Shown in pieces: positions 3,586 through 54,507 of a stretch of DNA of 61,834 nucleotides (positions are counted from its first letter, which is position 1; every line of letters starts with the position of its first letter). The notes beneath the pieces were generated by a model. The model saw only the letters and a list, made by a program, of their open reading frames with translations. It was not told the origin of the DNA and did not search any database. The translations under genes and the position numbers were made by a program. Source of the stretch: a virus (lineage: Duplodnaviria > Caudoviricetes); the IMG/VR virus record IMGVR_UViG_3300025000_000104, positions 1 through 61,834 of that record. One strand, written 5' to 3'.

Positions 3586-3618
3586 GGATATGTCATGTCG
3601 TGAGACACACCGCTATCC
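3586..3618 (+). promoter_or_regulatory. Reduced leader hairpin upstream of GIY-YIG gene (element A)
   Basis: GGATA/TATCC stem enclosing TGTC-GTGA-GACA hairpin; CTATCC 3613-3618 is complementary to GGATAG 3642-3647 beside the start. Confidence 0.45.
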
Positions 3619-3648
3619 ATCTTTTATATTAAATTAAAGGAGGATAGG

Positions 3649-4607
3649 ATGGTAAAAGAAAAGGTTTGTGGAATATATTGTATTAAGAATTTAATCAATA
3701 ATAAAATGTATATAGGTTTAAGTACTAATATTTATACAAGATGGGATAGTCATAGGAATATGTTAAATAGAAATGACCATTTCAATATATTTCTTCAAAG
3801 ATCGTGGAATAAATATAAAGAAAATAATTTCAAATTTAGTATAATTGAAATCTGTATAGAAGATGAATTGTCTCAAAAGGAAATTTATTATATTAAACTA
3901 TATGATGCCAATAATGATAAATATGGTTATAATTTATCATCTGGTGGAGATAAACCTAAAATAAATGAAGAATCTTTAATTAGAAAGTCTTTAAAATATT
4001 CTAAAAGAGTATTGCAATTTGCTAAAGATGGATTATTTATTGCTGAACATTTAAATTCTCATAAAGTTGGTGAATTATATAAAGTATCTCCTTCAGCTAT
4101 TCATCAATGTTGTTTGGGTAATACAAAATCTGCTTACGGGTATATATGGAAATTTAAAGAAGATTGTTGTGATATCGTCAGCAAGTTAAATGATAATACA
4201 GATATTCCAAATTTATATTATATAGCACCAGTTTCTAAAATTGTATATCAAATTGACTTAGAAGGAAATTTTCTTAAAGAATGGTATAGTTGTGATACTA
4301 TAGGAGAATTTTATAATATTGTATCTGAAAATATTCGTTCATGTTGTGATAAAAAATATGGCAGAAAAACTTATATAGGATATATGCTGATGATTATAAC
4401 ATAAATGGAATAGATTTACAATATTATACACGTCAAAAGAGTACAAAACCAGTTGAACAATATGACTTAGAAGGAAATTACATAGAAACTTTTGAATCAG
4501 CAAGAGAAGCAGAACGAGTAACTGGTATAGGTTATAAAATGATTTCTAGAGTATGCAAAGGTGAAAGACCTTATACTCATGGATTCATATGGAAATTTGC
4601 TAGTTAA
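3649..4607 (+). pseudogene. GIY-YIG homing endonuclease with NUMOD1-type repeats, frameshifted near 4385
   Basis: GIYCIKN...MYIG motif; ORF stops at 4404, but another frame (4386-4607) encodes a further repeat KPVEQYDLEGNYIETFESAREAERVTG...HGFIWKFAS. Confidence 0.8.
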
Positions 4608-4645
4608 AAATTAAAATAAATAATTGCCAGAAAGGTAATATACAT

Positions 4646-5236
4646 ATGGAAATATTAATGCCAACTGATAAAATTATTGACGAGATGAAATTAACTTCTG
4701 CTATTAGAGATCGTCGCATTTTTGTAAATGAGGTAATAGACAACGATATCTCATTCAAGACAGTTTATTTTTTAGATAGAATTGTCTCATTAGATAATAA
4801 ATCCAATATTCCTATGTCTGAAAGAGAAAGTATAGAAATACTTATTGACTCGCCAGGAGGCAGTATTAATTCAGGTCTAAGTATCATTTCTAAAGTCGAA
4901 GAATTAAAGGATATAGGATATAAGATTATCACTACTAATCAAGCTTCCTCTGCATCTATGGCATTCATGCTCCTTATAGTTGGATCTGAGCGTAGAGCTT
5001 ATCGCTATTCTTATGCACTTGCACATCAACCTTCAACGTGGATGGGTGGAGTTCTTCAAGAATTAGAAGATGAAGTAACTGAGCTAAAAAGATTATGGGG
5101 TTTAATGAAAATGCTAATTATGAAATATACTGATATTCCAGAATCAAAATTAGATGAATTTAAAGAAAAGAAACAAGATTGGATTTTAAATCCGTCTCAA
5201 TGTTTGGATATGGGTGTAATTGATTATATTATGTAA
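4646..5236 (+). CDS. clpP: ClpP-like serine protease
   Basis: IDSPGG, ASMA (catalytic Ser), HQP (His), DWIL (Asp), C-terminal MGVIDYI. Confidence 0.88.
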   Translation: MEILMPTDKIIDEMKLTSAIRDRRIFVNEVIDNDISFKTVYFLDRIVSLDNKSNIPMSERESIEILIDSPGGSINSGLSIISKVEELKDIGYKIITTNQASSASMAFMLLIVGSERRAYRYSYALAHQPSTWMGGVLQELEDEVTELKRLWGLMKMLIMKYTDIPESKLDEFKEKKQDWILNPSQCLDMGVIDYIM

Positions 5237-5255
5237 AATTTAAGGAGAATTATAT

Positions 5256-5627
5256 ATGTGCGATAATTGCAAAGAAATACAAGGTAAAGTAGATTCAATT
5301 ATTGAACCAACTGAAATCCTAGCAGAATTAAAATCAACCTCTCTCCCATCTTCTGATGAACCAATAATGTTTTTTGAACCTATAGATATAAATGGAACGG
5401 AAAAGTTAGATTTGGATGAATTTTCAAGAGGTATTAAAGAAGCATCGTTTGCATGTGGTATGTATACTGCATTATTAAATGTTGGATTTACTCAAGAAGA
5501 TGCAATTGCTTATATTTTCAATCGAATGAACATTGATAATAATATTGAGATTGGAAAAATTTCAGCTAATGCTACTATTGAATCTAGTAAAAATGTTAAT
5601 TTAGCAAAAGAGAAAGAAATGCTGTAA
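5256..5627 (+). CDS. Hypothetical protein
   Basis: ORF with SD AAGGAG, co-oriented. Confidence 0.7.
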   Translation: MCDNCKEIQGKVDSIIEPTEILAELKSTSLPSSDEPIMFFEPIDINGTEKLDLDEFSRGIKEASFACGMYTALLNVGFTQEDAIAYIFNRMNIDNNIEIGKISANATIESSKNVNLAKEKEML

Positions 5628-5676
5628 TTTTAATATTTACAATACAAAATAATAAATAAAGGTAGGAAATCACAAA

Positions 5677-6087
5677 ATGAGAGTATTTAATGCAGAATCA
5701 GTATGGGATAAAGAAGAACAAAAGTGGATGCAATGTCTAACTATTGATGGTTTTGAAGTAGATTTAGAAACTTATGCTTTGGAATTAAATAATGAAACAT
5801 ATGATAATGAAGAAGGCGTAATTGCTTGTACTTGTGATGATTGTGAAGAAGTAAATAGTAATGAGGATAATGATACTCATGGAGAAGATTGTACATGTGA
5901 GGACTGCCTAGAAGATAGGAAGAATATTTATTTAGCCGAAGCTGTAAAATATATGTTTGAGAATCAACTATGTCCTAAACATGTATTCGAAATGCTTGGA
6001 GATATTTATGATAAGGCAAATTATGAAGGTTACGAAGAAGGTTATGATGCAATGAAGGAAGATATGCGAGAGTTTTTAGAGGATTGA
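5677..6087 (+). CDS. Acidic Cys-rich hypothetical protein (possible metal binding)
   Basis: CTCDDC, HGEDCTCEDC and CPKH motifs. Confidence 0.7.
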   Translation: MRVFNAESVWDKEEQKWMQCLTIDGFEVDLETYALELNNETYDNEEGVIACTCDDCEEVNSNEDNDTHGEDCTCEDCLEDRKNIYLAEAVKYMFENQLCPKHVFEMLGDIYDKANYEGYEEGYDAMKEDMREFLED

Positions 6088-6160
6088 TGAAAACCAAATC
6101 AAATCAATTTTAGATTTTAATGGGATTTTTGTTAGGAATATATAAAGTTTTGTGGATTAT

Positions 6161-6190
6161 AGGCACTTCAATTTATTTTGGAGTGTCTTT
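6161..6190 (+). terminator. Intrinsic terminator-like hairpin (GCACTTC/GAAGTGTC family)
   Basis: AGGCACTTCAA...TTGGAGTGTCTTT. Confidence 0.55.
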
Positions 6191-6213
6191 GTGTCTTCAA
6201 AAATATTGTTGAC

Positions 6214-6310
6214 TTGGGGGTTAGGTTTTGTAATAGGGTAGCTCTCTATTTTCTGTGTTGCCTATCCCCTATTTATCCTTTAACACAGAGAGGATTATAA
6301 CACAGAAAGA
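6214..6310 (+). ncRNA. Antisense-loop leader RNA B with two targets
   Basis: GGGG-TTAGG/CCTA-TCCCC outer stem; inner hairpin with TAGCT loop; TTCTGTGTT 6251-6259 complementary to TAACACAGA repeats at 6281-6289 and 6298-6306. Confidence 0.7.
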
Positions 6311-6322
6311 AGGAATTAGAGA

Positions 6323-7519
6323 ATGTTAATTAGTAAAGAGGTAGAAGTTTTAGTAAAAAGAGGAAATATAAGATGGGTCGGAAAAATATATAATGTAAAA
6401 ATTGGTGATACAATTAATATCCCTATTGATAATTTACCAGTAAACTCTAAGGAATATATTGATTATTCATGTGATTATTGTGGAAAAGAAACAGGTAATA
6501 CATATCAGAATTACTATAAAAATCATAATAAATCAACCATACGAAAAGATGCTTGTAAAGAATGTGTAGCAGAAAAAAGAAAAGAAGTTGTTTTAGATAA
6601 ATATGGTGTTTCTAATATTAGTCAATTAGATGAAGTTAAAAGTAAAAAGGAGATTACATGTTTAGAGCATTTTGGTGTTTTTTGTAATTTAATTGCAGAC
6701 GATACAAAGAACAAAATCAAAAATACGAATCAAAAAATATATGGAGTAGACAATGTTGCAAAGAACAGTAATGTAAAAGAAAAAGCTCGTCAAACAAATT
6801 TGGATCGTTACGGGGTAGAATGGACTTCTCAGTCGCAACAAATGAGAAACAATACATTAATTACAATGAATGAGAGATACGGAGAAGATTATGGTATCAA
6901 TGTTCCAGAAATCAGAAATAAAATAGAAAAAACAAATTTAGATAGATATGGTTCTAAATGTGTTTTTGGTTCTGAATATTTTAAAGACAAATCAAAACAG
7001 ACGATACAAGATAAATTTGGAGTAGATAATGTATCTCAATGCGAAGAAATAAAAATGAAAAAAGCAGAAACATTTTATAAGAATGGAACGATTGCAACTT
7101 CAAGACAACAAATGTATATTCATCAATTATTTGGTGGTATTTTAAATTATTCTAATAATACACCAAGTTTAGATATTGCTTTCCCTGAAGATAAAATTTA
7201 TATTGAAGTAAACGGGTCTGGCCATGACCTATGTGTAAAAATGGGAACAATGACACAAAAAGAATTTGAACAAAGAGAATTAAGAAGATATAAATATTTA
7301 AAAGGGCATGGGTGGAAAGGTATTTTTATTAATACTGGTAGGGATTATTTGCCTTCTGACGATGTTTTGTTGGAAGAATACAGAAATGCTTTAGAATGGT
7401 TTAAATCTACTGATAAATATCATTCACATTATAATATTGATATTGGTGGAATTATTAATGATAACAAATATGGAAGATTAAGAAGAATTACAGAAAACGA
7501 TTTAGAAGAAGTTAGTTAA
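6323..7519 (+). CDS. Putative homing endonuclease: CDYC zinc module, (K/R)YGV-type repeats, C-terminal Vsr/PD-(D/E)xK-like nuclease
   Basis: Repeats DKYGVSNISQ, KIYGVDNVAK, DRYGVEWTSQ; SLDIAF...IYIEVNGSGH; paralog of 53140-54507. Confidence 0.7.
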   Translation: MLISKEVEVLVKRGNIRWVGKIYNVKIGDTINIPIDNLPVNSKEYIDYSCDYCGKETGNTYQNYYKNHNKSTIRKDACKECVAEKRKEVVLDKYGVSNISQLDEVKSKKEITCLEHFGVFCNLIADDTKNKIKNTNQKIYGVDNVAKNSNVKEKARQTNLDRYGVEWTSQSQQMRNNTLITMNERYGEDYGINVPEIRNKIEKTNLDRYGSKCVFGSEYFKDKSKQTIQDKFGVDNVSQCEEIKMKKAETFYKNGTIATSRQQMYIHQLFGGILNYSNNTPSLDIAFPEDKIYIEVNGSGHDLCVKMGTMTQKEFEQRELRRYKYLKGHGWKGIFINTGRDYLPSDDVLLEEYRNALEWFKSTDKYHSHYNIDIGGIINDNKYGRLRRITENDLEEVS

Positions 7520-7536
7520 TATCAACTTCTTCTTTA
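7503..7536 (+). terminator. Hairpin/terminator at end of endonuclease gene
   Basis: AGAAGAAGTT...AACTTCTTCT followed by T-rich tract. Confidence 0.5.
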
Positions 7537-7551
7537 TTTAATTAAAAAGAG

Positions 7552-10336: not shown

Positions 10337-10390
10337 AACAAAAAAAATAATAAATAAAATTACAACAATAATTAGAAAGGAGGTCATTCC

Positions 10391-12007: not shown

Positions 12008-12014
12008 TAATTTT

Positions 12015-12096
12015 GTGGCTAGATCGACGGATCGAAAAGAAGTTTCCCTACTTCCTGCCACTTTATAATATATTAGGGATTTCTATATGAAGGGAG
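12015..12096 (+). ncRNA. Antisense-loop leader RNA C with two targets
   Basis: GTGGC-TA-[GATC-GACG-GATC]-GAAAA-[GAAGT-TTCCCT-ACTTC]-CT-GCCAC; loop complementary to AGGGA at 12075-12079 and 12091-12095 (SD). Confidence 0.75.
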
Positions 12097-12103
12097 ATAT
12101 AAT

Positions 12104-13501
12104 ATGAGCAATAAATTGGAAACAAAGGATGTTAGAATATATTTAAATTCATTTGGATATGAACTGGTTAGTAAAGAATACACAGGAAGTAAAGGAATAC
12201 TTATTATTAAAGATAGTAAAGGTTATTATTATACAATTGTTTGGAACTCATTTCGTGATGGTATAAGACCAAAATTTGTACATTCATCTAATCCATATTC
12301 CATACAAAACATAAAACTATTTTTAAAAAATTATAAGGCTAAATATAATTTAATATCTGATGAATATAAAAATGAAGATTATCATTTAATTTTATGTGAC
12401 ATTGATGGATATTATTACAATTTAACTTGGAGGACATTACATAAAAATATTGATAGCAATCATGCTTTTGTTAGTGAGAAAAATATTTATTCAACTCAAA
12501 ATATTAAATTATTCTTAAACAAAAACAGTCTTGATTTAATACTATTAAATGAATTTAAAAACAATAAAGATAAATTAATTTTAGTAGACAAATATGGATA
12601 TAGATATACAAGAACTTGGTCAGATTTAAAAAGATTAAGTAATTTTCACATAGCAGATGATGGTAATTATTATTCTATACAAAACATAAAATTGTGGTGT
12701 AAATTAAATAATAAACCATTTGAATTAATAAGTACAGAATATAAAAATAATCGTGAAAAACTCCAATGGAGATGTCTAAAAGAAGTTTGTAAAGAAGAAT
12801 TTTATCAATCATGGGATAATATTTCAAGTGGCTATGGTAGCGGTTGTTCATATTGTGCTGGAAAACAAGTAGGATTATCAAACTGTCTCGCAACAAGAAA
12901 TCCAGAAATTGCTCTTCAATGGCATCCGACCAAAAATGGAAATTTAACACCTTGGAATGTGACTTATGGTAGTGAAAAAGAAGTATGGTGGGTATGTGAA
13001 GAGTGCAGTCACGAATGGAGTGTAACGCCAAATAATAGAACTTTTAACAATAGTGGATGCCCAGAATGTAATAAACCTAAAGGAGAAAAAGAATGCAAAA
13101 GAATTTTTCTTTTTAAAGGATTTATTGAAATTTCCCAAGATGATTATGATAAGTTATCAGAAATAAATAAAAATATTAATACATATTTCATACCTCAAAA
13201 AACATTTGAAGGATTAGTAGGTTTAGGTGGAGGTCTATTATCTTATGACTTTTATGTGCCAAAATATAATTTTCTTATAGAATATCAGGGTGAATACCAC
13301 GATCATGCAATATTAAATTATAAAGGAGAACCTTTAGAATTAGCTGAAGCAAGATTAGTAAAACAACAAGAACATGATAGACGTAAGAAAGAATATGCAG
13401 AGCAAAATAGATATAATTTTCTAGAAATTTGGTATAAAAACTTCAATAAAATCGAATCTATCCTAGAAAAAGAATTAAACATATTATCTAAAGTATCTTA
13501 A
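12104..13501 (+). CDS. Putative homing endonuclease with zinc-ribbon (treble-clef-like) domain and C-terminal PD-(D/E)xK nuclease
   Basis: Three YSIQNIK repeats; CSYC...PEIALQWHPTKN...VWWVCEECSHEW...GCPEC; SYDFY...LIEYQGEYH...LEIWY. Confidence 0.75.
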   Translation: MSNKLETKDVRIYLNSFGYELVSKEYTGSKGILIIKDSKGYYYTIVWNSFRDGIRPKFVHSSNPYSIQNIKLFLKNYKAKYNLISDEYKNEDYHLILCDIDGYYYNLTWRTLHKNIDSNHAFVSEKNIYSTQNIKLFLNKNSLDLILLNEFKNNKDKLILVDKYGYRYTRTWSDLKRLSNFHIADDGNYYSIQNIKLWCKLNNKPFELISTEYKNNREKLQWRCLKEVCKEEFYQSWDNISSGYGSGCSYCAGKQVGLSNCLATRNPEIALQWHPTKNGNLTPWNVTYGSEKEVWWVCEECSHEWSVTPNNRTFNNSGCPECNKPKGEKECKRIFLFKGFIEISQDDYDKLSEINKNINTYFIPQKTFEGLVGLGGGLLSYDFYVPKYNFLIEYQGEYHDHAILNYKGEPLELAEARLVKQQEHDRRKKEYAEQNRYNFLEIWYKNFNKIESILEKELNILSKVS

Positions 13502-13530
13502 CTCAGAAATAAATAAAACACAAAAAGTAG

Positions 13531-13725
13531 GTGAATAAGATTTTCATATATTGTTTTGATGAACAAGAAAAAATAAAACTTCAATCACAACAATTAAAAC
13601 TTTTCCAAGAAACTCACATTGACAATAAACAATGTTGGGTTTTTGCTATTGATACCAACAATAAATTTAATTTTAATCAAATTGATAAGAGTAAATGCGT
13701 TGTTAGTAATAGAATAATGTTTTAG
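13531..13725 (+). CDS. Small hypothetical protein
   Basis: Co-oriented ORF filling the gap before the protease gene. Confidence 0.55.
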   Translation: MNKIFIYCFDEQEKIKLQSQQLKLFQETHIDNKQCWVFAIDTNNKFNFNQIDKSKCVVSNRIMF

Positions 13726-13752
13726 TTTAATTAACAGAAAGGTGGTGAAAAA

Positions 13753-15693: not shown

Positions 15694-15735
15694 AAATAAA
15701 AAATAATTAAATTAATTAGAAGGAGGAAATAAACA

Positions 15736-16287: not shown

Positions 16288-16363
16288 TAAAAATAAATAA
16301 ATAAATAAATAAAATATTTTTTATAATATCAAATTAATAATTAGAAGGAGGAATTAGATTAAC

Positions 16364-17365: not shown

Positions 17366-17375
17366 GGATTATTTT

Positions 17376-17477
17376 AAAGCAAAGATAGGATAAATAGCGC
17401 AATTTGTCTTAAAAGAGGGTATCCTTTCTACCCTCTTCTTTGTTTTATTTAAATTTGAAAGGTTTTCATAGAAAGGA
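17376..17477 (+). ncRNA. Antisense-loop leader RNA D with two targets
   Basis: AAAGCAAAGA/TCTTTGTTTT outer stem; hairpin with AGCGCA loop; AAAA; GAGGGTA-TCCTTTC-TACCCTC; loop complementary to GAAAGG 17457-17462 and GAAAGGA 17471-17477 (SD). Confidence 0.75.
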
Positions 17478-17484
17478 TGATAAA

Positions 17485-18306
17485 TTGGAACAAATAGAAT
17501 CTAAAATTATTACAAACAACATGAAATATTCAGGTATTTATCTAATTATAAATTTAGTAAATAATAAATTTTATGTTGGTAGTGCCAAAAATTTATGGTC
17601 ACGTAAATTAAGTCACTATAGAGATTTAAGGAATAATAAACATAAAAACACTTATTTACAACACTCTTATAATAAATATGGTTCACAAAATTTTATAATA
17701 GTATTATTAGAAAAAGTAGAGTCTAAAAATGATTTAACTAAATGTGAACAGCATTGGATAGATACATTGGATGCTTGTAATAAGGATATTGCTTATAATA
17801 TATGCCCTACTGCCGAAAGTAAATTAGGTCTCCATCATTCCGAAGAAACTAAAAGCAAAATGAGTAAATCAATGAAGGGGATTAAGCGTACAGACGAAGG
17901 TAAGAAAAATATGAGTATATCTAAAAGCAAAACTATAGTTCAATGTGCAATTGACGGTATGTTTATTAAAGAATGGGAAAGTGCTAATTATGCTTCTAAA
18001 ATATTAAACTTATCACAAACAAATATATCTGGAGCATGTGTCCATAAACACGAATATGCTCATAATTTTCTATGGTTTTTTAAATCAGAATATGAAGAAA
18101 AAGATTTTAATATTAATAAATACATACCAACTATTGGTAAAAAGATTAATCAATTTGATTTAGATGGTAAATTGATTAAAACATGGGACACCTACAAGGA
18201 TATAAGAATAGACCATAAATTTAGAACAACTTATATTCTTGGTTGTTGTGAAGGAATATATAAAAGTCATAAAGGTTTCACATGGAAATATGCTCAAACG
18301 GCATAA
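17485..18306 (+). CDS. GIY-YIG homing endonuclease with NUMOD3/NUMOD1-type motifs
   Basis: SGIYLIINLVNNKFYVGSA; HSEETKSKMS; QFDLDGKLIKTW; start TTG 17485 after SD GAAAGGA. Confidence 0.88.
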   Translation: MEQIESKIITNNMKYSGIYLIINLVNNKFYVGSAKNLWSRKLSHYRDLRNNKHKNTYLQHSYNKYGSQNFIIVLLEKVESKNDLTKCEQHWIDTLDACNKDIAYNICPTAESKLGLHHSEETKSKMSKSMKGIKRTDEGKKNMSISKSKTIVQCAIDGMFIKEWESANYASKILNLSQTNISGACVHKHEYAHNFLWFFKSEYEEKDFNINKYIPTIGKKINQFDLDGKLIKTWDTYKDIRIDHKFRTTYILGCCEGIYKSHKGFTWKYAQTA

Positions 18307-18362
18307 TACCTAAGATAAATACAATATAACACTAAAATAAATAAAAAGGAATTGAAAACAAT

Positions 18363-18863: not shown

Positions 18864-18877
18864 AGGATGTGAATTAA

Positions 18878-19315: not shown

Positions 19316-19353
19316 TATTATAGAAGAGATATTTAATATAAGGAGGTTAGAAA

Positions 19354-19737: not shown

Positions 19738-19867
19738 TAAATATAGAAAACTAATTCATTGTTAGAGAATTAACTCTCTAACTTTTGTATTTTATGAAGA
19801 TATTTTAAGGAGTATAAGCCTTAATATCTCCACAAAAATAATTAATTATTAAGAGGAGGAATAAATA

Positions 19868-20143: not shown

Positions 20144-20226
20144 TTGTACTTTAATAAGAGAGTGCTAAATCAACACTCTCTTTTCTAATTATAATTTGCA
20201 GAATATAGAAAGGAGTTGATATTAAA

Positions 20227-21399: not shown

Positions 21400-21415
21400 G
21401 AAGTGATTAGGTAAA

Positions 21416-22636: not shown

Positions 22637-22658
22637 TAATTGCTATGTAATAATAATC

Positions 22659-22687
22659 TAGACTTTCCGAAAGGATAGTCTTTTTTA
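22659..22687 (+). terminator. Intrinsic terminator
   Basis: AGACTTTCC-GAAA-GGATAGTCT followed by T tract. Confidence 0.7.
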
Positions 22688-23905: not shown

Positions 23906-25498
23906 ATGTTAATAACTAAAGAAGTAACTACAACATGGAATCCAACAACAAGAAAATATTATGAGGACTTAGGATATGTCTATACAAAACATAATGAAAA
24001 ATTTATTGTAAAAATAGAAGATTTACATAAAGGTTCTAATTCAAAAATAGATTATCAATGTGATTTATGTGGAGAATTAGCAAACACAATATATTGTAAA
24101 TATAATGAGATGAAAAATAAATATGGCAAAGATATGTGTAGAAAATGTATATCTAGTAATATTATTCAAAACACAAGAAAACAAAATGATGACAATTATT
24201 CCAGACATGACACTCATGAAAAAAGAAAAGCAGACTTACAAAATTATCTATTGGAGTATAAAACTTTAAACAAAATGACAACAAATACATTTGGTAAAAG
24301 ATTGTATGACAATTTTAAAAGTTACAAAGATGATGTATATGATACCGCAATGGAGTTAGGATATAAAATAGAAGATATTTCTAAATCAATGCCTAAAGAT
24401 TATTATATAAAATATCCAGAAATATTAAAAGAAAAATTAATATCTTTTACAACTGAACATAAAAGATTTCCTAGAATAAAAGAAATGGAAAAAGTATTAC
24501 AAATCAATACTCATTTTATTAGTGATTTTGGAGGACTTGATGAGTTTAAGAAATTAATAAATTATGATGATAGTAAAGATTTGATAGATTTAAGAGGAGA
24601 CTACAACCGTTCGATAGTAGAGTTAATAACGGCGAATTACTTCTGTTCACAAAGTTTAAAAGATAAATATACTAGAGAACAATATCCATTTCCAAAAGAA
24701 GAAGGTTATTTTAGGTCTGATTTTACTTTTTATTTAGATAATAATAAAGAATTACATGTTGAGGTATGGGGTTTTAGAGAATGTGAAAAAACTTCTGAGA
24801 AAGCAATTCGCTACCATAAGGTTAGAAAAATTAAAGAAGATTTATATGAAAAATACTCTGATGATATAATATTAATCAGTATAAATTATGAACTTTTTGA
24901 TAAAAAGTATGATGAAATACAAAAACATTTGTATAAATTATTTTCTCCATATATTGCTTTAAGATTTAAAGACGTATCTTATAAAAAGTTACTATCTCCT
25001 TCTTTGCTTAGTGATGAAGAGTTATTTAATGAAGTTATGGTTATAAGTCCAGATGGAATAACACTTCCTACAGCGTCAGATTTATCTTCACATAGTGCAG
25101 GTTTGTATTATCAAATATTAAAAAGGGGTTATACATATAATGGATTTGCTAAGAAGTATGGAGTTAAGACAAAAAACAATAAAACTGAATGGTCTAAAAA
25201 ATTAGTATTTGAATATTTTGGGAAGATAATAGAAGTTGGAAAAATAATTAATAGAAAATCTATGAACGAACAACATAGTAATCTCGCAGGTGCTCTTAAA
25301 AAATATGGGCAGGTAACTAAATTAAAATTAGAGTATTTTAATAAAATTAATATAATTCCTATACAAGAGTTAAGATGGATTAAAAATTTAATAAATAATG
25401 ATATTGGTACTACAGCAAAATATTCTAATAAAGACATTGATAAAGCAAAACAAATCTTAGATAAATACAATAACAATCTTCAACTTAGTGCTAAATAG
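23906..25498 (+). CDS. Putative homing endonuclease-like protein (PD-(D/E)xK-type)
   Basis: Shared MLITKEV..W...YY...GY...VKIEDL...CDLC N-terminus; YFRSDFTFY...LHVEVWG. Confidence 0.65.
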   Translation: MLITKEVTTTWNPTTRKYYEDLGYVYTKHNEKFIVKIEDLHKGSNSKIDYQCDLCGELANTIYCKYNEMKNKYGKDMCRKCISSNIIQNTRKQNDDNYSRHDTHEKRKADLQNYLLEYKTLNKMTTNTFGKRLYDNFKSYKDDVYDTAMELGYKIEDISKSMPKDYYIKYPEILKEKLISFTTEHKRFPRIKEMEKVLQINTHFISDFGGLDEFKKLINYDDSKDLIDLRGDYNRSIVELITANYFCSQSLKDKYTREQYPFPKEEGYFRSDFTFYLDNNKELHVEVWGFRECEKTSEKAIRYHKVRKIKEDLYEKYSDDIILISINYELFDKKYDEIQKHLYKLFSPYIALRFKDVSYKKLLSPSLLSDEELFNEVMVISPDGITLPTASDLSSHSAGLYYQILKRGYTYNGFAKKYGVKTKNNKTEWSKKLVFEYFGKIIEVGKIINRKSMNEQHSNLAGALKKYGQVTKLKLEYFNKINIIPIQELRWIKNLINNDIGTTAKYSNKDIDKAKQILDKYNNNLQLSAK

Positions 25499-30697: not shown

Positions 30698-30805
30698 AGT
30701 AAGTGGACTAAGGAGAGCTACCTGAAAAGACACAATCCTTAGTGTCCTGTCCACTTATTATTCTTTTTAGAATAGAGGATTAAGGAAATAAAAATATTAA
30801 AGGAG
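30698..30805 (+). ncRNA. Antisense-loop leader RNA F
   Basis: AGTAAGTGGAC-TA-[AGG-AGAGCTA-CCT]-GAAAA-[GACAC-AATCCTTA-GTGTC]-CT-GTCCACTTATT; loop complementary to AGGATT/TAAGGA 30776-30786 and AAGGA of the SD near 30800. Confidence 0.75.
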
Positions 30806-30815
30806 ATGTTGAAAA

Positions 30816-32366
30816 ATGTTAATTAGTACAGAAGTAGAAGTGGTTTGGTCTAAGTGGAAAAAAGAATATTATATTCTAAGAGGTTATTGTTTTACAAAAA
30901 TAGGTGATATATTTATAGTTAAAATTGAAGATGTTGATCCAAATTCTAGTACAACCATCGAATATAAATGTGATTATTGTAAAACACCTCAAAAAATATA
31001 TATTAGAGATTATAATAAACAAAAAAGAGATGTCATAAACAAAGACTGTTGTGGAAAATGTGCTCATCTAAAAAATATTGCAATTAAGGAGGAAAAATCT
31101 GAATTAGGATTATTAAACAAAAGTGATTATGGTTACTGGAAATTTTATTCAAGTAGATTAAAAGAATTGAGTATATTTTTAAAAGAGAATAAAGTTGAAG
31201 ATTTACACAATGACAAATATTCACCACTTACTGAGTCTATTTATAGAAATAAAGATAATATTATAGATATGATACTTGAGTTAAAATTAAATGTGTATGA
31301 TGTTTGTGATGATTTACATAATTTGTACTTTCATATAAATAAAAATAACATTGAAAATATAATTGCTATATTTATTGATAAGAATAAGTATTTCCCTTCT
31401 TTGTTAGAAATGTCAAATATTTTACAACTTTCATATAGAATTTTGGTTAAATGTGGAGGATATTACTGTATTAAAAACAACATGGGTTTCAATAGTGATA
31501 TTTCTAATACTAAATTAATAAACATTAAAAGTAACATGGAAACCTTAGAAAAATATAAGGGCATTAGTGGAGTTTATAAAATAACAAATATAATTAATGG
31601 TAAAGTTTATATAGGCCAAGCAATGGATTTATGGAATAGAATTAATTCTGGATATATTTATTCGTTGCCAAAAGGAAGTTGTCATAATATTCATCTTCAA
31701 AGAGCATGGGATAAAGATGGAGGAGAAAATTTTTATATTGATATTATTGAGACATGTGATATTAAAATTTTAACAGAAAGAGAACAATTTTGGATTAATC
31801 AAACTCAATGTTTTAATAATAAGTTTGGTTACAATATTCTAGAATTCGCAGATAGTAATAGAGGTGCTAAAATCTCTGAAGAAACAAGAAAGAAGATAAG
31901 TGATGCTTCTAAATTAAGATTTGGGTGGCATCATACACAGGATGTCAAAGATCATCTATCTGATATACGTTCCAAATCTATTATTCAGTTAGATTTAGAT
32001 GGAAATTATATCAAGGAATGGAGAAATTCTAATGACGCATCAATTGCATTAACTGGAAAGAATACGAACGCTACGAATATAAGAGAATGTGCAAATGGGA
32101 GAGGAGCTTCATCTTGTGGATTTTTATGGATAAATAAAGATGAGTATAATAAAGAAACATTTAATAAAATGGATTATGAAAATAGAGATAAAACTAAAAG
32201 AAGAGTTGTTCAGTTAAGTCTAGATTGTGAATATTTAAAAACATTTAGAACAATGACAGAAGCGAAGAACGAAACAAAAGCAAGTAATATAAGTGCATGT
32301 CTATGTGGATTACAACATAAAAGTGGTGGATTTAAATGGATGTATGAAGAAGATTATTTAAAATAA
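30816..32366 (+). CDS. GIY-YIG homing endonuclease with N-terminal CDYC extension and NUMOD motifs
   Basis: SGVYKITNIINGKVYIGQA at mid-protein; ISEETRKKIS; QLDLDGNYIKEW; GGFKWMY. Confidence 0.85.
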   Translation: MLISTEVEVVWSKWKKEYYILRGYCFTKIGDIFIVKIEDVDPNSSTTIEYKCDYCKTPQKIYIRDYNKQKRDVINKDCCGKCAHLKNIAIKEEKSELGLLNKSDYGYWKFYSSRLKELSIFLKENKVEDLHNDKYSPLTESIYRNKDNIIDMILELKLNVYDVCDDLHNLYFHINKNNIENIIAIFIDKNKYFPSLLEMSNILQLSYRILVKCGGYYCIKNNMGFNSDISNTKLINIKSNMETLEKYKGISGVYKITNIINGKVYIGQAMDLWNRINSGYIYSLPKGSCHNIHLQRAWDKDGGENFYIDIIETCDIKILTEREQFWINQTQCFNNKFGYNILEFADSNRGAKISEETRKKISDASKLRFGWHHTQDVKDHLSDIRSKSIIQLDLDGNYIKEWRNSNDASIALTGKNTNATNIRECANGRGASSCGFLWINKDEYNKETFNKMDYENRDKTKRRVVQLSLDCEYLKTFRTMTEAKNETKASNISACLCGLQHKSGGFKWMYEEDYLK

Positions 32367-40482: not shown

Positions 40483-40651
40483 TAGCAGACTTTGGACGCT
40501 TAGTTTGCTATTTTATATGGGAAGTGATTGCCTCCAACGTCACTTCTTTTGTTTTGGGAGGGTGGGAAACTGCTCTCTCTTTTTGTATTTGTTTTGTTGG
40601 AGGTTGATTAAGTGGTTAAAGATGATAAATAATAATTTAGAAAGTTGGAGG
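40483..40651 (+). ncRNA. Antisense-loop leader RNA G with terminator and two targets
   Basis: Hairpin 40483-40510; hairpin 40520-40547 with loop TGCCTCCAAC; terminator 40556-40584; GTTGGAGG at 40596-40603 and 40644-40651 (SD). Confidence 0.75.
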
Positions 40652-40659
40652 AATGTAAA

Positions 40660-43230
40660 ATGAGTAATAATGTTGAAACAAAGGTTTGTAAGGTTTGTGG
40701 TAATGAGAAGTCGGTTAGTGAGTTCGGTTCAAAAAGGAATATGGTTTGTAAAACATGTAAATGGATAGAAGATCATGAAGATTTAGATATGATTAACGAT
40801 TTATCCAAAGATGAAAATGTTATAATTCTAGATTATATTCTAAACAGTAGAATAAACTTTTTAAATGAATTTGAAACCATTTTACATAAACCATTAAATG
40901 ATATTCTTATTAATATCCAAAAATTAAATATAAGAAATTATAATTTGACAGTTAAAATAAATTGCAATGCCTGTGGCAAAGAAATTTCTTATAAACTTAC
41001 GTCTTATTTAAATAGAGACAATTATTTTTGTAGTAGGGAATGCCAAAATTATTTTCAAAGTTATTCTTATGGATGTAAAGATGGTTATCAGAAATGCGGA
41101 TTTTGTACTCAAGAAAAACCCTATGATGAATTCAGTAAAAATGGTAAAGACAAATATGCCACTGTTTGTAAAGTATGTGAGGCTATCAATAAAAGAAATA
41201 TAATTTATGACAATATTTTCACAGAACAAATAGTGCATATGATATTTGACAATATATTAAATAGCAAAATTGAATCACTTAATCAATTATCTTTATTAAT
41301 AAATATAGAATTAGATTTATTAATACCTTTTGTCAAAATTATTAATATTAGTAAGAAGCCAATTAAGTTGGAATTTAATTGTCCAGTTTGTAGCAAACAA
41401 GTTTTTAGGATTATTTCTTTAATGGAAAGTGCAAATGAGCATTATTGTAGCAAGGAATGTTTTGATATTGATCAATCAATGGAAATATTAATGGAGTGCA
41501 AATGGTGTGGAAAAGAGTTTAATAAAACTCCATTAAAAGATCAAGAGAATTATTTTTGTTGCCATGATTGTTCTACAAAATATCATGCCAAAAAGAGAAC
41601 AAAGGATTTAATAGTTGCTAATTGTGAATTTTGCGGAGAAGAATTTGAAAGAAAAGAATATAATACAGGTAAAATATATTGTTCAGATGAATGTAGGGCT
41701 AAAGGATTTAATTTAAAAATGAGTGGTAAAAACAATCCTAAATATGTAGAAAGATTGACTATTAAATGCGACTGGTGTAAAACAGAATTTGGAGAAACTG
41801 AGAATAGTTATAATCAGTCTACAAATCATTTTTGTAGCAAAGATTGTGCTCGTGCTTACCACGCCAATGTATTTTCTCAAACTCCTGAGTGGAAAGAGTT
41901 CATGAGAGTTGAGATGGTCAATAGATTATCAGATGGCATTATGTCACATACAGATACCAAACCGCAGTTAGCAGTAAATGATATATTGAAGGAATTAGAC
42001 GTAGAAAATGAAAATGAATATAATTGTAAATATTACGCTATTGATAATCATTTAACTGAGTCTAATCTTTTCATAGAAGTAATGGGGAGTTTTTGGCACA
42101 CAGATCATCGAATATTTGATAAAATAAATTATCTTTCTCAAGCAACGGGTATTAGTAAAGACAAAGCAAAGAAAACATATATTAAGAAATATTATCATAT
42201 AAATATGTTATATCTTTGGGAATATGATATAAATAATGATAGAGGACTGTGTAAGGAACTGATAACATTATATGTAAATAATAAAGGTGTGTTAGATAAT
42301 TATCATAGTTTTAATTATCATCTAAATAATGGAATTTTAACAATAAACAAGAATATTGAAATTCCATATATGGACTATGATATTGAAGATTTAAATAAGA
42401 TAATTGATCTGTCTGTTAGGGAGGCTAGAAGTACATATCAACCAGAAAAACATATTACATATAATTGTGAATATTGTGGCACAGAAACATCTTGCATGTT
42501 GACACAATATGATAGAGTAGGTCATCATTTTTGTTCAAACAAATGTAATACAGCTTATTATGGAGCAAAAAGATTGAAATCAAAACAACTGTGTAATGTT
42601 TGTGGTAATAATATACCTCATAAGAATGGTTTGTGCAAAGTTTGTACATATAAAAATACTCATGATATATTATATTCTGAAATATGGACAGAAGAAATAG
42701 GAGATATAATTTTAAATAATGTTTTATATAAAAGAATTGAGTATTTAAATGAATTGGAGGAGATATTAAATATACCATTAAAGGATATATGTGAATATAT
42801 AAAATTAATAGGTTATGCTTCAACATTGAGAACACAAAGAGTGTGTTTACAGTGCGGTGAAGAATTTACTTTGCCTATGAACAGAATTATAAGTGGCAAG
42901 GATAAATTTTGTTCTCCTGAATGCAGTCAATTATCCAAAAGAGATAGAATTAAATTAGATTGTGAATGTTGTGGAAAGGAAATAAGCAGAACACAAAGTC
43001 AATATGATAAATCAAAAAATCACTTCTGCTCTCATGAATGTTCTGACAAGTGGATGAAGGAAAATAGAGTTTCTACTAAGATTGACAAAGTATGTGAAAT
43101 TTGTGAAATAGATTATCAGGTAGTTCCATCTCAATCTGAGTCAGTAGTGTGTTCTAGAGAATGCCAAGGTAAGTGGCAATCGTTACATTTGGTTGGAGAA
43201 AATGCTAATGGGTATAAAGGTAATAAATAG
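40660..43230 (+). CDS. Large multi-zinc-finger endonuclease (central Vsr/PD-(D/E)xK-like domain)
   Basis: Many CxxCG...FCSxxC repeats flanking YAIDNHL...LFIEVMGSFWH...LYLWEYDI; start ATG 40660. Confidence 0.7.
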   Translation: MSNNVETKVCKVCGNEKSVSEFGSKRNMVCKTCKWIEDHEDLDMINDLSKDENVIILDYILNSRINFLNEFETILHKPLNDILINIQKLNIRNYNLTVKINCNACGKEISYKLTSYLNRDNYFCSRECQNYFQSYSYGCKDGYQKCGFCTQEKPYDEFSKNGKDKYATVCKVCEAINKRNIIYDNIFTEQIVHMIFDNILNSKIESLNQLSLLINIELDLLIPFVKIINISKKPIKLEFNCPVCSKQVFRIISLMESANEHYCSKECFDIDQSMEILMECKWCGKEFNKTPLKDQENYFCCHDCSTKYHAKKRTKDLIVANCEFCGEEFERKEYNTGKIYCSDECRAKGFNLKMSGKNNPKYVERLTIKCDWCKTEFGETENSYNQSTNHFCSKDCARAYHANVFSQTPEWKEFMRVEMVNRLSDGIMSHTDTKPQLAVNDILKELDVENENEYNCKYYAIDNHLTESNLFIEVMGSFWHTDHRIFDKINYLSQATGISKDKAKKTYIKKYYHINMLYLWEYDINNDRGLCKELITLYVNNKGVLDNYHSFNYHLNNGILTINKNIEIPYMDYDIEDLNKIIDLSVREARSTYQPEKHITYNCEYCGTETSCMLTQYDRVGHHFCSNKCNTAYYGAKRLKSKQLCNVCGNNIPHKNGLCKVCTYKNTHDILYSEIWTEEIGDIILNNVLYKRIEYLNELEEILNIPLKDICEYIKLIGYASTLRTQRVCLQCGEEFTLPMNRIISGKDKFCSPECSQLSKRDRIKLDCECCGKEISRTQSQYDKSKNHFCSHECSDKWMKENRVSTKIDKVCEICEIDYQVVPSQSESVVCSRECQGKWQSLHLVGENANGYKGNK

Positions 43231-52967: not shown

Positions 52968-53031
52968 TTAAAATGAAAGAGTATGTGAAAACCATACTCT
53001 TTTGTGTACATAAATAAAGCATACAAATTTT

Positions 53032-53134
53032 AGCAAGCAGATGGAGATTGCAACTCCACTTTCCTCATTCACTCCGAGGAATTCTGCTTGCTTTTTATAT
53101 TGTCAAAAAATGGAGTGAAACTATGAAGGAGTGA
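53032..53134 (+). ncRNA. Antisense-loop leader RNA H with two targets
   Basis: AGCAAGCAGA-[TGGAG-ATTGCAA-CTCCA]-CT-[TTCCTC-ATTCACTCC-GAGGAA]-T-TCTGCTTGCT-TTTT; loop complementary to GGAGTGAA 53112-53119 and GGAGTGA 53128-53134 (SD). Confidence 0.8.
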
Positions 53135-53139
53135 TGATT

Positions 53140-54507
53140 ATGTTGCTAACAAAAACCGTAATGGTAAAATGGAATCCTGCAAATGCAGAATATTATAAAG
53201 AGAAAGGATACACTTTTACAAAATGGAGAGATGGATTTGAGGTAAAAATTGAAGATTTATCTAAAGGTTCTCATGCAAAAATAGATATATTATGTGATTA
53301 TTGTAACCTTAATATAATTACTAGAGAATATAAAGACTATCTAACTAAAAAGAAAAATTCAGCAATACAAAAAGACTGCTGTTTAGATTGTAAATCGTTA
53401 AAAACAAAAGAAAGCAATCTAATGAATTATAATGTTGAATCTGTTTTAAATATCCCAGAAGTTAAATATAAAATTAGCAAAACTCGGAAACAAACGAGTA
53501 ATGATGTTGTATTAAGTAAGGCAATACAAGATAAAAGAAAAGCAACAAATAGAGCAAGATTTGGAGTTGATCATCCATCTCAAAATGAAGAAATTAATCA
53601 GAAAATGAAACAGACTAATTTAGATAGGTATGGTTTTGAAAATGTTTTTCAAAATGAAGAAATCAAAGAAAAAAGTCGTAATACAAATATGTTAAGGTAT
53701 GGATTTGAATATCCTATGCAAAACAAAGAAGTTAGAGAAAAAGGTATCTCTACAAATCAAAAAATATATGGTGTGGACAATTATACTCAAACCGAGGAAT
53801 ATAAAATAAGATCAGTTGCTATTTCTTTAGAGCACTGGGGCACTAAACACCCTATGCAGAATGAAGAAGTGAAAGCAAGAGTAACAAACACAATGTTGAA
53901 AAATTGGGGAGTAGAAAATTCTATGCAAAATGAAGAATTGAGAAATAAAGCTTTTACTACCAATATTGAAAGATATGGATTTAAATGTTCTTTGCAAAAC
54001 GAGGAAGTTAGAGCAAAAGCTATAATGACAATGTTTTTATCTGATACTTGCCCAACTTCTAAACAGCAAAGATATGTTTACGAAGTAATTAAAAAACAAG
54101 AAATAGATGTAGTGTTGAATTACCCTGTTGGTTCATGTAGTTTAGATATGGCATTCCCTAATAAAATGGTGTTTATAGAGTGGGATGGCGGTGGACATGA
54201 TTTAGATGTAAAATTAGGTAGTATGTCTAAGGAAGAATTTGATGCAAAAGAAAGAAGACGATACTATTACCTTAATAAATTAGGTTGGAAAAGTATTAGA
54301 ATTATTAGTAAAAAAGATGTAGTTCCTACTGAAGATAAAATATTAGAAATACTAAATCATGCAGAATTAACATTTAAAGAAGGACATTCGTGGATTACTT
54401 TTGATATTGATGATAACACTGCAACTAATCGTAATGGGTTTATACTTTATGATTTTGGAGAATTAAAAAGAGTTAAAACTGAACAAGTATTAAATAAAAT
54501 AATTTAA
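53140..54507 (+). CDS. Putative homing endonuclease, paralog of 6323-7519
   Basis: MLLTKTV..KW...VKIEDL...CDYC; repeats (R/K)YG....QNEE; SLDMAF...FIEWDGGGH. Confidence 0.7.
   Translation: MLLTKTVMVKWNPANAEYYKEKGYTFTKWRDGFEVKIEDLSKGSHAKIDILCDYCNLNIITREYKDYLTKKKNSAIQKDCCLDCKSLKTKESNLMNYNVESVLNIPEVKYKISKTRKQTSNDVVLSKAIQDKRKATNRARFGVDHPSQNEEINQKMKQTNLDRYGFENVFQNEEIKEKSRNTNMLRYGFEYPMQNKEVREKGISTNQKIYGVDNYTQTEEYKIRSVAISLEHWGTKHPMQNEEVKARVTNTMLKNWGVENSMQNEELRNKAFTTNIERYGFKCSLQNEEVRAKAIMTMFLSDTCPTSKQQRYVYEVIKKQEIDVVLNYPVGSCSLDMAFPNKMVFIEWDGGGHDLDVKLGSMSKEEFDAKERRRYYYLNKLGWKSIRIISKKDVVPTEDKILEILNHAELTFKEGHSWITFDIDDNTATNRNGFILYDFGELKRVKTEQVLNKII

What the first reader, a model, noticed from the sequence alone, without database searches (positions are those of the whole stretch)
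3586..53140. Family of antisense-loop leader RNAs giving each free-standing endonuclease its own sequence-coded translational lock
Seen: seven of eight endonuclease genes have a 50-100 nt multi-stem leader directly upstream. It usually has a closing stem, a hairpin with a short loop, and a second hairpin or single-stranded segment complementary to downstream repeats at or beside the SD. Pairs: B TTCTGTGTT vs TAACACAGA x2 (6281, 6298); C TTCCCT vs AGGGA x2 (12075, 12091); D TCCTTTC vs GAAAGG(A) x2 (17457, 17471); E AATCCGAA vs TCGGA x1 (23887); F AATCCTTA vs AGGATT/TAAGGA (30776-30786) plus SD; G TGCCTCCAAC vs GTTGGAGG x2 (40596, 40644); H ATTCACTCC vs GGAGTGA(A) x2 (53112, 53128). Primary sequences differ, yet loop and targets co-vary. 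C and F share the linkers TA, GAAAA and CT; D has TA and AAAA. I saw no such leader before core structural genes. Known: P1/P7 C4 and P4 CI RNAs repress by pairing to duplicated downstream targets, and T4 homing endonucleases use simple RBS hairpins. Inference: these are self-contained mobile RNA-plus-nuclease units with orthogonal codes, possibly acting in trans as element-specific immunity that silences the nuclease unless a naive genome is met.
Basis: partly seen in the sequence, partly recalled or inferred. Interest (0 to 1): 0.92.

Follow-up and report, generated by a model that had tools for sequence, protein, structure and literature searches.

The report
Leader RNAs locking phage endonuclease genes
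Most homing-endonuclease genes in this uncultured phage carry their own folded RNA leader whose loop matches the gene's ribosome-binding site, probably a built-in translation brake that travels with the mobile gene; one version is an RNA motif already catalogued without a known function.

Summary
All eight genes are homing-endonuclease-like. Six of the seven cited leaders fold better than shuffles (C, D, E, F, G, H; z -2.8 to -6.0); B does not (z -0.02). C, D, E, F and H are three-way junctions: closing stem, hairpin 1, hairpin 2, T-rich tail. In the window alone only B, D, G and H beat chance for loop/target matching. Relatives settle it. In 30 non-redundant leaders the hairpin-2 loop matches its own downstream region better than others' (5.93 vs 4.23 nt; 0 of 20000 permutations). 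15 of 30 have two or more targets, against 8.5% of non-cognate pairs. Hairpin-1 loops and 39 non-endonuclease genes show no such signal. Empty insertion sites lack the leader. Leader C is Rfam int-alpA (46.8 bits), and so is an F-ortholog leader. D, E, G, H, B and 20 related loci match no Rfam family. Best reading: a cis anti-Shine-Dalgarno lock carried by the mobile cassette. The trans "orthogonal immunity" idea is not supported: the codes overlap and many pairings are only 5-6 nt. New here: hairpin-1 loops are mostly palindromic (18 of 30). This is a new variant of a known kind.

The parts
3585..3648 (+). Leader A. A simple hairpin (3613-3647) sequesters the SD of the GIY-YIG gene, with an upstream alternative partner for the same strand. 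It is not a three-way junction.
   Evidence: MFE -18.3, z -2.67. The same type recurs in L014, L015, L102, L117 and L136.
6215..6322 (+). Leader B. The antisense segment at 6252-6259 lies in an internal loop. Target 1 (6282-6289) sits in a hairpin loop and target 2 (6299-6306) is unpaired, just 5' of the SD.
   Evidence: 8-nt triple, 1/300 shuffles. In one search the fold is no better than shuffles (z -0.02).
12012..12107 (+). Leader C, which is Rfam int-alpA. The three-way junction is 12015-12061, with the hairpin-2 loop at 12044-12049. Targets are at 12075-12079 and 12091-12095 (the SD). A mini-ORF at 12087-12107 has a stop that overlaps the endonuclease ATG at 12104.
17375..17484 (+). Leader D. 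The three-way junction is 17375-17447, with the palindrome-bearing hairpin-1 loop at 17396-17401 and the hairpin-2 loop at 17422-17428. Targets are at 17457-17462 and 17470-17478 (the SD).
   Evidence: 10-nt match, 0/200; z -5.97; R1 15.2 bits
23796..23905 (+). Leader E. A long-armed three-way junction at 23796-23877, with the hairpin-1 loop at 23815-23818 and the hairpin-2 loop at 23851-23858. A single target at 23887-23891 abuts the SD.
   Evidence: z -5.61. Orthologs L066, L067, L044, L046 and L047 change loop and target together.
30699..30815 (+). Leader F. An int-alpA-like three-way junction at 30699-30758, with the hairpin-2 loop at 30734-30741. Targets are at 30776-30786 and 30800-30804 (the SD).
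   Evidence: z -3.06. The ortholog leader L069 scores 39.5 bits for int-alpA. F itself has no Rfam match.
40483..40659 (+). Leader G. Hairpin 1 is 40483-40510. Hairpin 2 is 40515-40552, with its loop at 40529-40538. A terminator-like hairpin at 40556-40579 is followed by a T run. Targets are at 40596-40603 and 40644-40651 (the SD).
   Evidence: z -4.71; 8-nt triple, 0/300; 1/200
53032..53139 (+). Leader H. The three-way junction is 53032-53092, with the palindromic hairpin-1 loop at 53047-53053 and the hairpin-2 loop at 53067-53075. Targets are at 53112-53119 and 53128-53134 (the SD).
   Evidence: 0/200; z -5.03; 5/300; R1 13.3 bits
3649..4404 (+). Endonuclease gene A (GIY-YIG)
6323..7519 (+). 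Endonuclease gene B (DUF7487; PHROG homing endonuclease)
12104..13501 (+). Endonuclease gene C (DUF4379 Zn finger; PHROG HNH endonuclease)
17485..18306 (+). Endonuclease gene D (GIY-YIG). The TTG start at 17485 is inferred from SD spacing; the frame is open from 17440.
23906..25498 (+). Endonuclease gene E (PHROG homing endonuclease, N-terminal part)
30816..32366 (+). Endonuclease gene F (GIY-YIG)
40660..43230 (+). Endonuclease gene G (PHROG HNH endonuclease)
53140..54507 (+). Endonuclease gene H (DUF7487; PHROG homing endonuclease)

Best explanation
Each free-standing homing-endonuclease cassette brings its own 5' leader RNA. The usual form is a three-way junction: a closing stem, hairpin 1, hairpin 2 and a T-rich tail. 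The apical loop of hairpin 2 carries an anti-Shine-Dalgarno sequence. That sequence extends into gene-specific flanking bases and pairs in cis with the endonuclease's own ribosome-binding site. Often it can also pair with a second copy 12-48 nt upstream. On any transcript that contains the leader, such as read-through from the upstream phage gene, this long-range pairing hides the SD and keeps endonuclease translation low. The second copy gives the loop another docking place within or beside the ribosome footprint. In the C type it serves as the SD of a short leader frame. Shown: the structures, their restriction to endonuclease genes, loop/target co-variation, overlap of the proximal target with the SD, and membership of the leader in the inserted cassette. 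Inferred: that the pairing forms in vivo, that it represses rather than activates, and what relieves it. Relief might come from a promoter in the spacer, as for T4 endonucleases, or from ribosomes on the leader frame.
For: Structure: z-scores of -2.8 to -6.0 for C-H. In 14 related leaders, 93.9% of cells are paired and 13 of 17 pairs change on both sides. 0 of 500 shuffles reach this, and slid controls give 37-63% paired. Specificity: the three-way-junction criterion is met before 5 of 8 endonuclease genes and 1 of 39 other genes. All 14 significant matches of model R2 in 482,728 bases lie just upstream of endonuclease-like ORFs. Co-variation: over 47 non-redundant endonuclease upstream regions, cognate loop-to-initiation-region matches average 5.30 vs 4.38 nt, and duplex energy -6.51 vs -4.80 kcal/mol, with 0 of 20000 permutations reaching either. 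The 39 other genes show 4.31 vs 4.34 nt (p 0.60). Over 30 automatically found junctions, the hairpin-2 loop scores 5.93 vs 4.23 nt (0/20000), and 15 of 30 have two or more sites against 8.5% of non-cognate pairs (0/20000). The hairpin-1 loop, as an internal control, scores 2.83 vs 3.39 nt (p 0.998). The site nearest the start lies within -21 to -3 in 21 of the 30. F orthologs (73-74% protein identity) and E orthologs (68-84%) change loop and targets together. Cassette membership: 10 of 46 related portal junctions are empty and lack the leader. Duplex energies of -11 to -16 kcal/mol for B, C, D, G and H are in the range expected to compete with 16S pairing (the comparison value is from general knowledge). 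Precedent: T4-family endonucleases are kept silent by RNA structures that sequester the RBS (PMC2988022, passages read).
Against: There is no expression or probing data. No RNA run holds the sequence. Within the window, C, E and F do not exceed shuffles on their own, and B's fold is no better than random. The pairings of E and F are weak (-7.0 and -8.1 kcal/mol). The family is heterogeneous. Model R2 did not recover the window's leaders at E<=5 in the full search, and D and H reach only 15.2 and 13.3 bits with R1 against a 1.3-kb target. In related portal loci the automatic criterion separates endonuclease genes from others only weakly (4/19 vs 3/53, p 0.07), largely because it misses C-type variants. 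A loop bound to the upstream copy would leave the SD free, so the sign of regulation is not determined. The loci were gathered by endonuclease homology and share ancestry, so the permutation tests overstate independence despite an 80% identity filter. Start codons were assigned automatically.
Confidence: 0.55

Rival explanations
1. The junction is released as a discrete small RNA, ending at the T-rich tail or processed. It acts in trans on the two targets of its own element, like the P1/P7 c4 or P4 CI immunity RNAs. It may act as a kissing dimer through the palindromic hairpin-1 loop, so that two loops clamp two targets.
For: A T-rich tail follows the closing stem in 21 of 30 leaders, against 14% background. 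Rfam types int-alpA as an sRNA gene, and its consensus has a U run after the closing stem. Duplicated targets occur in 15 of 30 leaders. Hairpin-1 loops are palindromic in 18 of 30. B, D, G and H have 8-10 nt matches. The c4/CI parallel is recalled, not from a call.
Against: Many pairings are only 5-6 nt. The codes are not orthogonal for E, F and H. E-type leaders have one target only. Rfam C4 does not match. The terminator scan of 3000-22999 flagged only D's hairpin 2 among leaders A-D, and found 6 sites against 4.4 expected.
Confidence: 0.15
2. The loop-target pairing activates rather than blocks translation. A pseudoknot next to the SD, coupled to translation of a short leader frame, opens or positions the initiation region, as in IncI/IncB plasmid repZ control (recalled).
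For: The C type has a conserved upstream ATG. Its frame either ends on the endonuclease ATG (window, L002, L120) or runs in frame into the endonuclease (L006, L007, L086, L118, L124). H and G also have short frames after target 1. B's targets lie beside the SD, not on it.
Against: In most leaders the proximal target covers the SD core itself, which must exclude 16S pairing while it is bound. A start codon 3-13 nt after target 1 is present in only 9 of 15 two-target leaders, which I estimate is near chance in this AT-rich sequence (the estimate is mine, not computed).
Confidence: 0.1
3. The junction's main role is something other than SD pairing. It could be a transcription terminator or insulator at the 5' edge of the cassette, or a protein-binding site such as a dimeric regulator on the palindromic hairpin 1. 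Under this reading the anti-SD loop is secondary.
For: T-rich tails. G has a separate terminator-like hairpin. Terminator-like hairpins also precede the B and F leaders. Hairpin-1 loops are palindromic and junction bases are conserved.
Against: It does not explain why the hairpin-2 loop tracks its own downstream targets while the hairpin-1 loop does not. A strong terminator between essential late genes would be polar (inference).
Confidence: 0.12
4. The complementarity is chance plus generic SD/anti-SD-like sequence in an AT-rich genome.
For: C, E and F alone are not above shuffles. An unrestricted k-mer test is noisy: cognate 6.79 vs 6.23 nt.
Against: Cognate beats non-cognate in 0 of 20000 permutations, which already controls for generic SD/anti-SD content. 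Other genes show nothing. Even the noisy test gives p 0.0003, against 6.08 vs 6.19 nt for controls.
Confidence: 0.03

Closest known systems
Rfam int-alpA RNA motif (RF02996), from the Weinberg et al. 2017 candidate-RNA survey
   Same: Leader C matches the full model at 46.8 bits against a threshold of 35.8. Nine of 12 related loci score at or above threshold and two more reach 35.0-35.1, including the F-ortholog leader L069. The architecture is the same: a closing stem, UA, hairpin, GAAAA, hairpin, CU, then a U run. The printed consensus even carries CCuU in the second loop and AgGG after the U run.
   Different: No function is assigned to it. By my recall, not a call, it was described near integrase and alpA genes in Proteobacteria and in phage metagenomes. 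Here it precedes homing endonucleases in a 29% G+C phage. The main text of PMC5737381 does not mention it, and its supplement was closed. Leaders A, B, D, E, F, G and H and 20 related loci do not match the model.
RBS-sequestering hairpins of T4-family homing endonucleases (I-TevI, I-TevII, I-TevIII, segB, Aeh1 mobE)
   Same: Endonuclease translation is limited by RNA structure that hides the SD on long transcripts (PMC2988022, passages read). Leader A is of this simple kind.
   Different: In T4 a local hairpin holds the SD in its stem, and a late promoter inside it gives unlocked transcripts. Here the anti-SD sits in the loop of a separate three-way junction that ends 20-77 nt upstream of the start. 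The pairing is long-range and sequence-coded, and there is often a second target. No promoter could be called here: 129 promoter-like sites were found against 130.3 expected.
P1/P7 c4 and P4 CI antisense immunity RNAs (recalled)
   Same: A structured RNA is encoded upstream in the same transcription unit. Its exposed segments pair with two downstream targets, one at a ribosome-binding site.
   Different: Those RNAs are processed and act in trans on anti-repressor or replication operons. Rfam C4 matches nothing here. Many pairings here are too short for trans action, and the codes overlap.
IncI/IncB plasmid repZ/repA leader pseudoknot with leader peptide (recalled)
   Same: A hairpin loop pairs with a sequence next to the RBS, and a short leader frame ends at the start of the regulated gene, as in the C type.
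   Different: There the pseudoknot activates translation and is itself the target of an antisense RNA. Here the loop mostly covers the SD core.

Membership tests
Rfam int-alpA (RF02996) | Score at or above the curated gathering threshold (35.8 bits) with the family covariance model | tested here: met
   Met for leader C only (46.8 bits), and for 9 of 12 related loci (35.8-48.4 bits), with two more at 35.0-35.1 and L068 unmatched. Not met for A, B, D, E, F, G and H even at E<=10 on 1338 bases, nor for 20 loci with the other leader types.
Rfam int-alpA (RF02996) | Three-way junction with linkers UA / GAAAA / CU and a U run after the closing stem | tested here: met
   C and F have exactly these linkers. 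D, H, E and the R1-type leaders keep the architecture but with other linkers, such as UA(G), GAUA, GACA and UAAUU.
Rfam int-alpA (RF02996) | Genomic context next to integrase or alpA genes (as the name implies; recalled) | tested here: not met
   Here and in all related loci the downstream gene is a homing endonuclease. A pattern scan of bacterial genomes gave 56 hits and none folds as the motif, so the original context could not be examined.
c4 / P4 CI antisense RNAs | Match to the Rfam C4 model | tested here: not met
   No C4 match in the window at E<=10 or in the leader snippets.
c4 / P4 CI antisense RNAs | Processed, stable small RNA acting in trans | not testable with these tools
   No RNA run is listed for this sequence. 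This needs Northern blot, term-seq or trans-complementation.
T4-type endonuclease RBS hairpin | SD lies in the stem of a local hairpin | tested here: met
   Met for A (3613-3647). Not met for C-H, where the SD is outside the folded junction and would pair with a loop.
T4-type endonuclease RBS hairpin | A late promoter inside or after the inhibitory element gives unlocked transcripts | tested here: inconclusive
   The consensus scan is uninformative: 129 sites against 130.3 expected. TATAAT-like words follow the C-type closing stem in several relatives, but this is an AT-rich genome.

The most novel reading that the evidence does not exclude
The junction is a portable, programmable riboregulator module that mobile nuclease cassettes exchange freely. 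It terminates at its T-rich tail to give a small RNA. That RNA self-dimerises through the palindromic hairpin-1 loop, as a kissing complex. The dimer's two anti-SD loops then clamp the two target copies on read-through mRNA. This would make nuclease expression depend on the dosage of the element's own RNA, a c4-like immunity or copy-sensing circuit for homing endonucleases. It would also give the orphan int-alpA motif its function.
Probability: 0.12. Interest if true: 0.85.

Novelty: new variant of a known kind. Interest (0 to 1): 0.62.

Why it matters
How free-standing homing endonucleases are kept from harming their phage is known in detail only for a few T4-family genes. This finding shows a different, modular solution in an uncultured phage clade. 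A leader RNA carries a rewritable anti-SD loop, moves with the nuclease gene, and is swapped between nuclease types. It gives a concrete, testable function to an orphan Rfam motif (int-alpA). It extends that motif to several undescribed subfamilies. It also points to a possible RNA dimerisation element. The loop/target logic is simple enough to test with reporters, and it could serve as a compact, programmable translational lock.

Tried and rejected
Group I introns were considered as the source of the stems. Rfam finds no intron, and the flanking genes are separate, intact genes.

Hammerhead or other ribozyme cores were considered. Rfam gives no match, and the junction lacks the conserved core (my reading).

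One covariance model for all leaders was tried. R1 was built from 6 sequences and R2 from 14. They recover 14 leaders of one subfamily but not the window's leaders in the full search. D and H reach only 15.2 and 13.3 bits on small targets. The set is therefore several related subfamilies, not one model-definable family.

The first, unrestricted scans were too noisy in AT-rich sequence and were replaced by loop-restricted tests.

The first two junction finders often picked spurious AT-rich stems and were superseded.

A leader peptide as a general feature was rejected: 9 of 15 two-target leaders have a start codon after target 1.

RNA evidence: no RNA holder is listed.

Cultured phages: the C leader has no meaningful blastn match, with best E 0.9. 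Relatives of endonuclease C in cultured phages are distant, at 28-41% identity. Two that I opened are intron-borne. One free-standing case, Thomasclavelia phage TR-TP1, has no such leader by eye.

A pattern scan for int-alpA in bacterial genomes gave 56 hits, and none folds as the motif.

The genome search by handles found no int-alpA in five related records. Rfam does find the copy in L003, which comes from one of those records, so that blank is a false negative.

The search for related loci found only 2 relatives each for H and E and none for B.

A column-wise pseudoknot count on the E-type alignment was not run, because MAFFT put the loops out of register.

Literature: 'int-alpA' occurs in 2 held papers. 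One lists it by name among predicted sRNAs in 2 of 5 E. coli strains (PMC12370729, passage). In the other it means the gene order int-alpA-pri, not the RNA (PMC13612085, passage). Two searches on homing endonuclease plus SD, pseudoknot or hairpin terms gave 6 and 3 listed papers, none describing such leaders by title or abstract. The supplement of PMC5737381, which probably describes int-alpA, was closed. It may already note the loop/SD complementarity.

Full report
WHAT THE WINDOW IS. The window is an entire viral-contig record of 61.8 kb with about 29% G+C, judged 38% complete. DNA runs that hold it are labelled groundwater metagenome. It encodes head, portal, terminase and tail genes on the + strand. 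Eight free-standing endonuclease genes are interspersed among them. A, D and F are GIY-YIG. B and H are DUF7487. C is a Zn-finger/HNH type. E and G match no Pfam family but match PHROG homing or HNH endonuclease families. No cultured phage is close.

CHECK OF THE OBSERVATION. Folding the leaders gives z-scores of -2.78 (C), -5.97 (D), -5.61 (E), -3.06 (F), -4.71 (G) and -5.03 (H) against 200 shuffles. B scores -0.02.

C, D, E, F and H fold as three-way junctions. Each has a closing stem, hairpin 1, hairpin 2 and then a T-rich tail. G has two homologous hairpins without a closing stem, plus a terminator-like third hairpin. B keeps its antisense segment in an internal loop and shows target 1 in a hairpin loop. 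A is a simple SD-sequestering hairpin.

Inside the window the complementarity beats chance only for some leaders. For loop versus the initiation region, D scored 0/200, H 0/200 and G 1/200, while C, E and F looked like shuffles. For one antisense plus two direct copies, G scored 0/300, B 1/300 and H 5/300, against D 51/300, C 83/300 and F 176/300. An automatic junction criterion is met before 5 of 8 endonuclease genes and 1 of 39 others (p 2e-4). That one other hit has no loop complementarity.

COMPARATIVE EVIDENCE. Searches with endonucleases C, E, F and H gave 76 loci. A search with B gave none. With the window's eight leaders these make 63 distinct upstream regions. An automatic RNAfold-based finder that ignores downstream sequence called a junction ending within 100 nt of the start in 34 of the 63, and 30 remain after an 80% identity filter.

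In these 30 leaders the hairpin-2 loop matches its own downstream region over 5.93 nt on average. It matches other leaders' regions over only 4.23 nt (0 of 20000 permutations). 15 of 30 have two or more sites of at least 5 nt, against 8.5% of non-cognate pairs (0 of 20000). The hairpin-1 loop, used as an internal control, shows no excess (2.83 vs 3.39 nt; 1 of 30).

A looser test used all hairpin loops in 47 non-redundant endonuclease upstream regions, including those without a junction. It gives the same answer: 5.30 vs 4.38 nt and -6.51 vs -4.80 kcal/mol, both 0 of 20000. The 39 other genes of the window show nothing: 4.31 vs 4.34 nt (p 0.60) and -3.85 vs -3.60 kcal/mol (p 0.16).

The proximal site lies within -21 to -3 of the start in 21 of the 30 leaders. 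Orthologs change loop and target together. This holds for the three F-type leaders (window, L068, L069). It also holds for the E-type leaders (window, L066, L067, L044, L046, L047).

The stems co-vary as well. In 14 leaders aligned to model R1, 93.9% of cells pair and 13 of 17 pairs show changes on both sides. 0 of 500 shuffles reach this, and slid controls give 37-63%. That alignment was fitted to the model, which favours the structure.

WHAT IS KNOWN. Rfam places leader C in int-alpA at 46.8 bits against a threshold of 35.8. Of 12 related loci, 9 score at or above threshold, 2 score 35.0-35.1, and L068 has no match. The hits include L069, the ortholog of leader F.

The printed consensus already shows CCuU in the second loop and AgGG after the U run. 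The complementarity is therefore built into the family's seed. Its function is unassigned. The main text of the source paper does not mention the motif, and the supplement was closed.

Leaders A, B, D, E, F, G and H have no Rfam match even at E<=10 on 1.3 kb. Neither do 20 loci with the other leader types at gathering thresholds. D and H are weakly but correctly aligned by my model of the commonest subfamily, at 15.2 and 13.3 bits. H shares most of its closing-stem sequence with that subfamily. I therefore read the set as related subfamilies of one architecture. Only one of them has been described.

THE LEADER BELONGS TO THE CASSETTE. I compared the junction between the portal gene and the next small gene in 46 related loci. 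Ten are empty and have neither leader nor endonuclease. Nineteen carry the C-type leader followed by either of two endonuclease types (55-88% or 29-31% identical to C). Fourteen carry a different insert: a small ORF, a hairpin and an endonuclease. Three carry an A-type leader plus an endonuclease. Leader and nuclease ORF are thus inserted together but are separable modules.

MECHANISM. The shown facts fit a cis-acting anti-SD lock. They parallel the RBS-sequestering structures of T4-family endonucleases (PMC2988022), but with a loop-displayed, sequence-coded antisense element and often a second target.

I put this at 0.55. The sign of regulation and the release mechanism are inferred. In its favour are the T-rich tails in 21 of 30 leaders, the duplicated targets and the palindromic loops. 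Against it are the short pairings and the overlapping codes. The own target is best for B, C, D, G and H but not for E and F, and H nearly ties with the E and G regions. An activating pseudoknot coupled to a leader frame gets 0.10. A mainly terminator or protein-binding role gets 0.12. Chance gets 0.03.

NEW FEATURES. Hairpin-1 loops hold a 6-nt palindrome in 18 of 30 leaders, with five different palindromes. They hold a 4-nt or longer palindrome in 23 of 30. Shuffled loops give means of 2.87 and 12.4, and 0 of 2000 shuffles reach the observed counts. Hairpin-2 loops hold a 6-nt palindrome in 1 of 30. Related leaders share loops by descent, so these are not 18 independent events. The change of palindrome with retained symmetry still suggests selection for self-complementarity. 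The layout of one or two purines, six palindromic bases, then A resembles retroviral dimerisation loops (recalled).

In the C type an upstream ATG and four following codons are conserved. The short frame either stops on the endonuclease ATG or runs in frame into it.

LIMITS. There are no RNA data. The loci share ancestry and were found through the endonuclease. Start codons and junctions were called automatically, and some calls are wrong (L016, L027, L052, L053, L062); they were kept in the counts. The finder misses most C-type variants (4/19 vs 3/53, p 0.07). The original proteobacterial context of int-alpA could not be examined.

VERDICT. This is a new variant of a known kind: SD-occluding leaders of homing endonucleases, overlapping the orphan int-alpA motif. 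Interest is 0.62.

Noticed in passing
window 17396-17401, 23815-23818, 30714-30720, 53047-53053; loci L010, L021, L024, L044, L046, L061 and others: Hairpin-1 loops of the leaders are mostly palindromic. Five different 6-nt palindromes and four 4-nt ones occur. 18 of 30 loops hold a 6-nt palindrome, against 2.87 expected from shuffled loops. This suggests RNA kissing dimers or a dimeric binding partner.
   Followed up: partly
window 12087-12107; L006, L007, L086, L091, L118, L120, L124: C-type leaders keep an upstream ATG plus four codons. The short frame either ends with a stop that overlaps the endonuclease ATG or is in frame with the endonuclease. So the first 'target' acts as a real SD in this subfamily.
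   Followed up: partly
L086-L136 (portal gene 3' junction); window 12008-13530: The same intergenic site is empty in 10 of 46 related loci. In the rest it is occupied by at least three different leader-plus-endonuclease cassettes. The C-type leader is combined with two unrelated endonuclease types.
   Followed up: yes
window 6161-6188 and 30640-30669; L068 about 1010-1040 upstream region: Similar terminator-like hairpins lie just upstream of the B and F leaders and the F ortholog. This suggests a shared 5' edge of these cassettes.
   Followed up: no
window 40556-40585: Leader G has a G+C-rich hairpin followed by a T run between the antisense hairpin and the first target. This is a plausible intrinsic terminator inside the leader.
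   Followed up: no
L089, L096, L101, L110, L114, L115, L121, L123, L129, L135 (first 230 nt after the portal stop): An alternative cassette at the portal junction starts with a conserved ORF of about 65 codons that ends in a hairpin, followed by an endonuclease without a three-way junction. The small protein's role is unknown.
   Followed up: no
L010 3359-3417: A second leader of the same subfamily lies downstream of the first endonuclease in L010. It has its own two targets and precedes another endonuclease-like ORF (3472-3933, cut by the locus end; phrog_4538, as for C).
   Followed up: partly
G001 (record of L003): the genome search by handles reported no int-alpA in this record, yet Rfam cmscan finds one at 46.8 bits in locus L003, which comes from the same record. 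A blank from that route should not be trusted for this short motif.
   Followed up: yes
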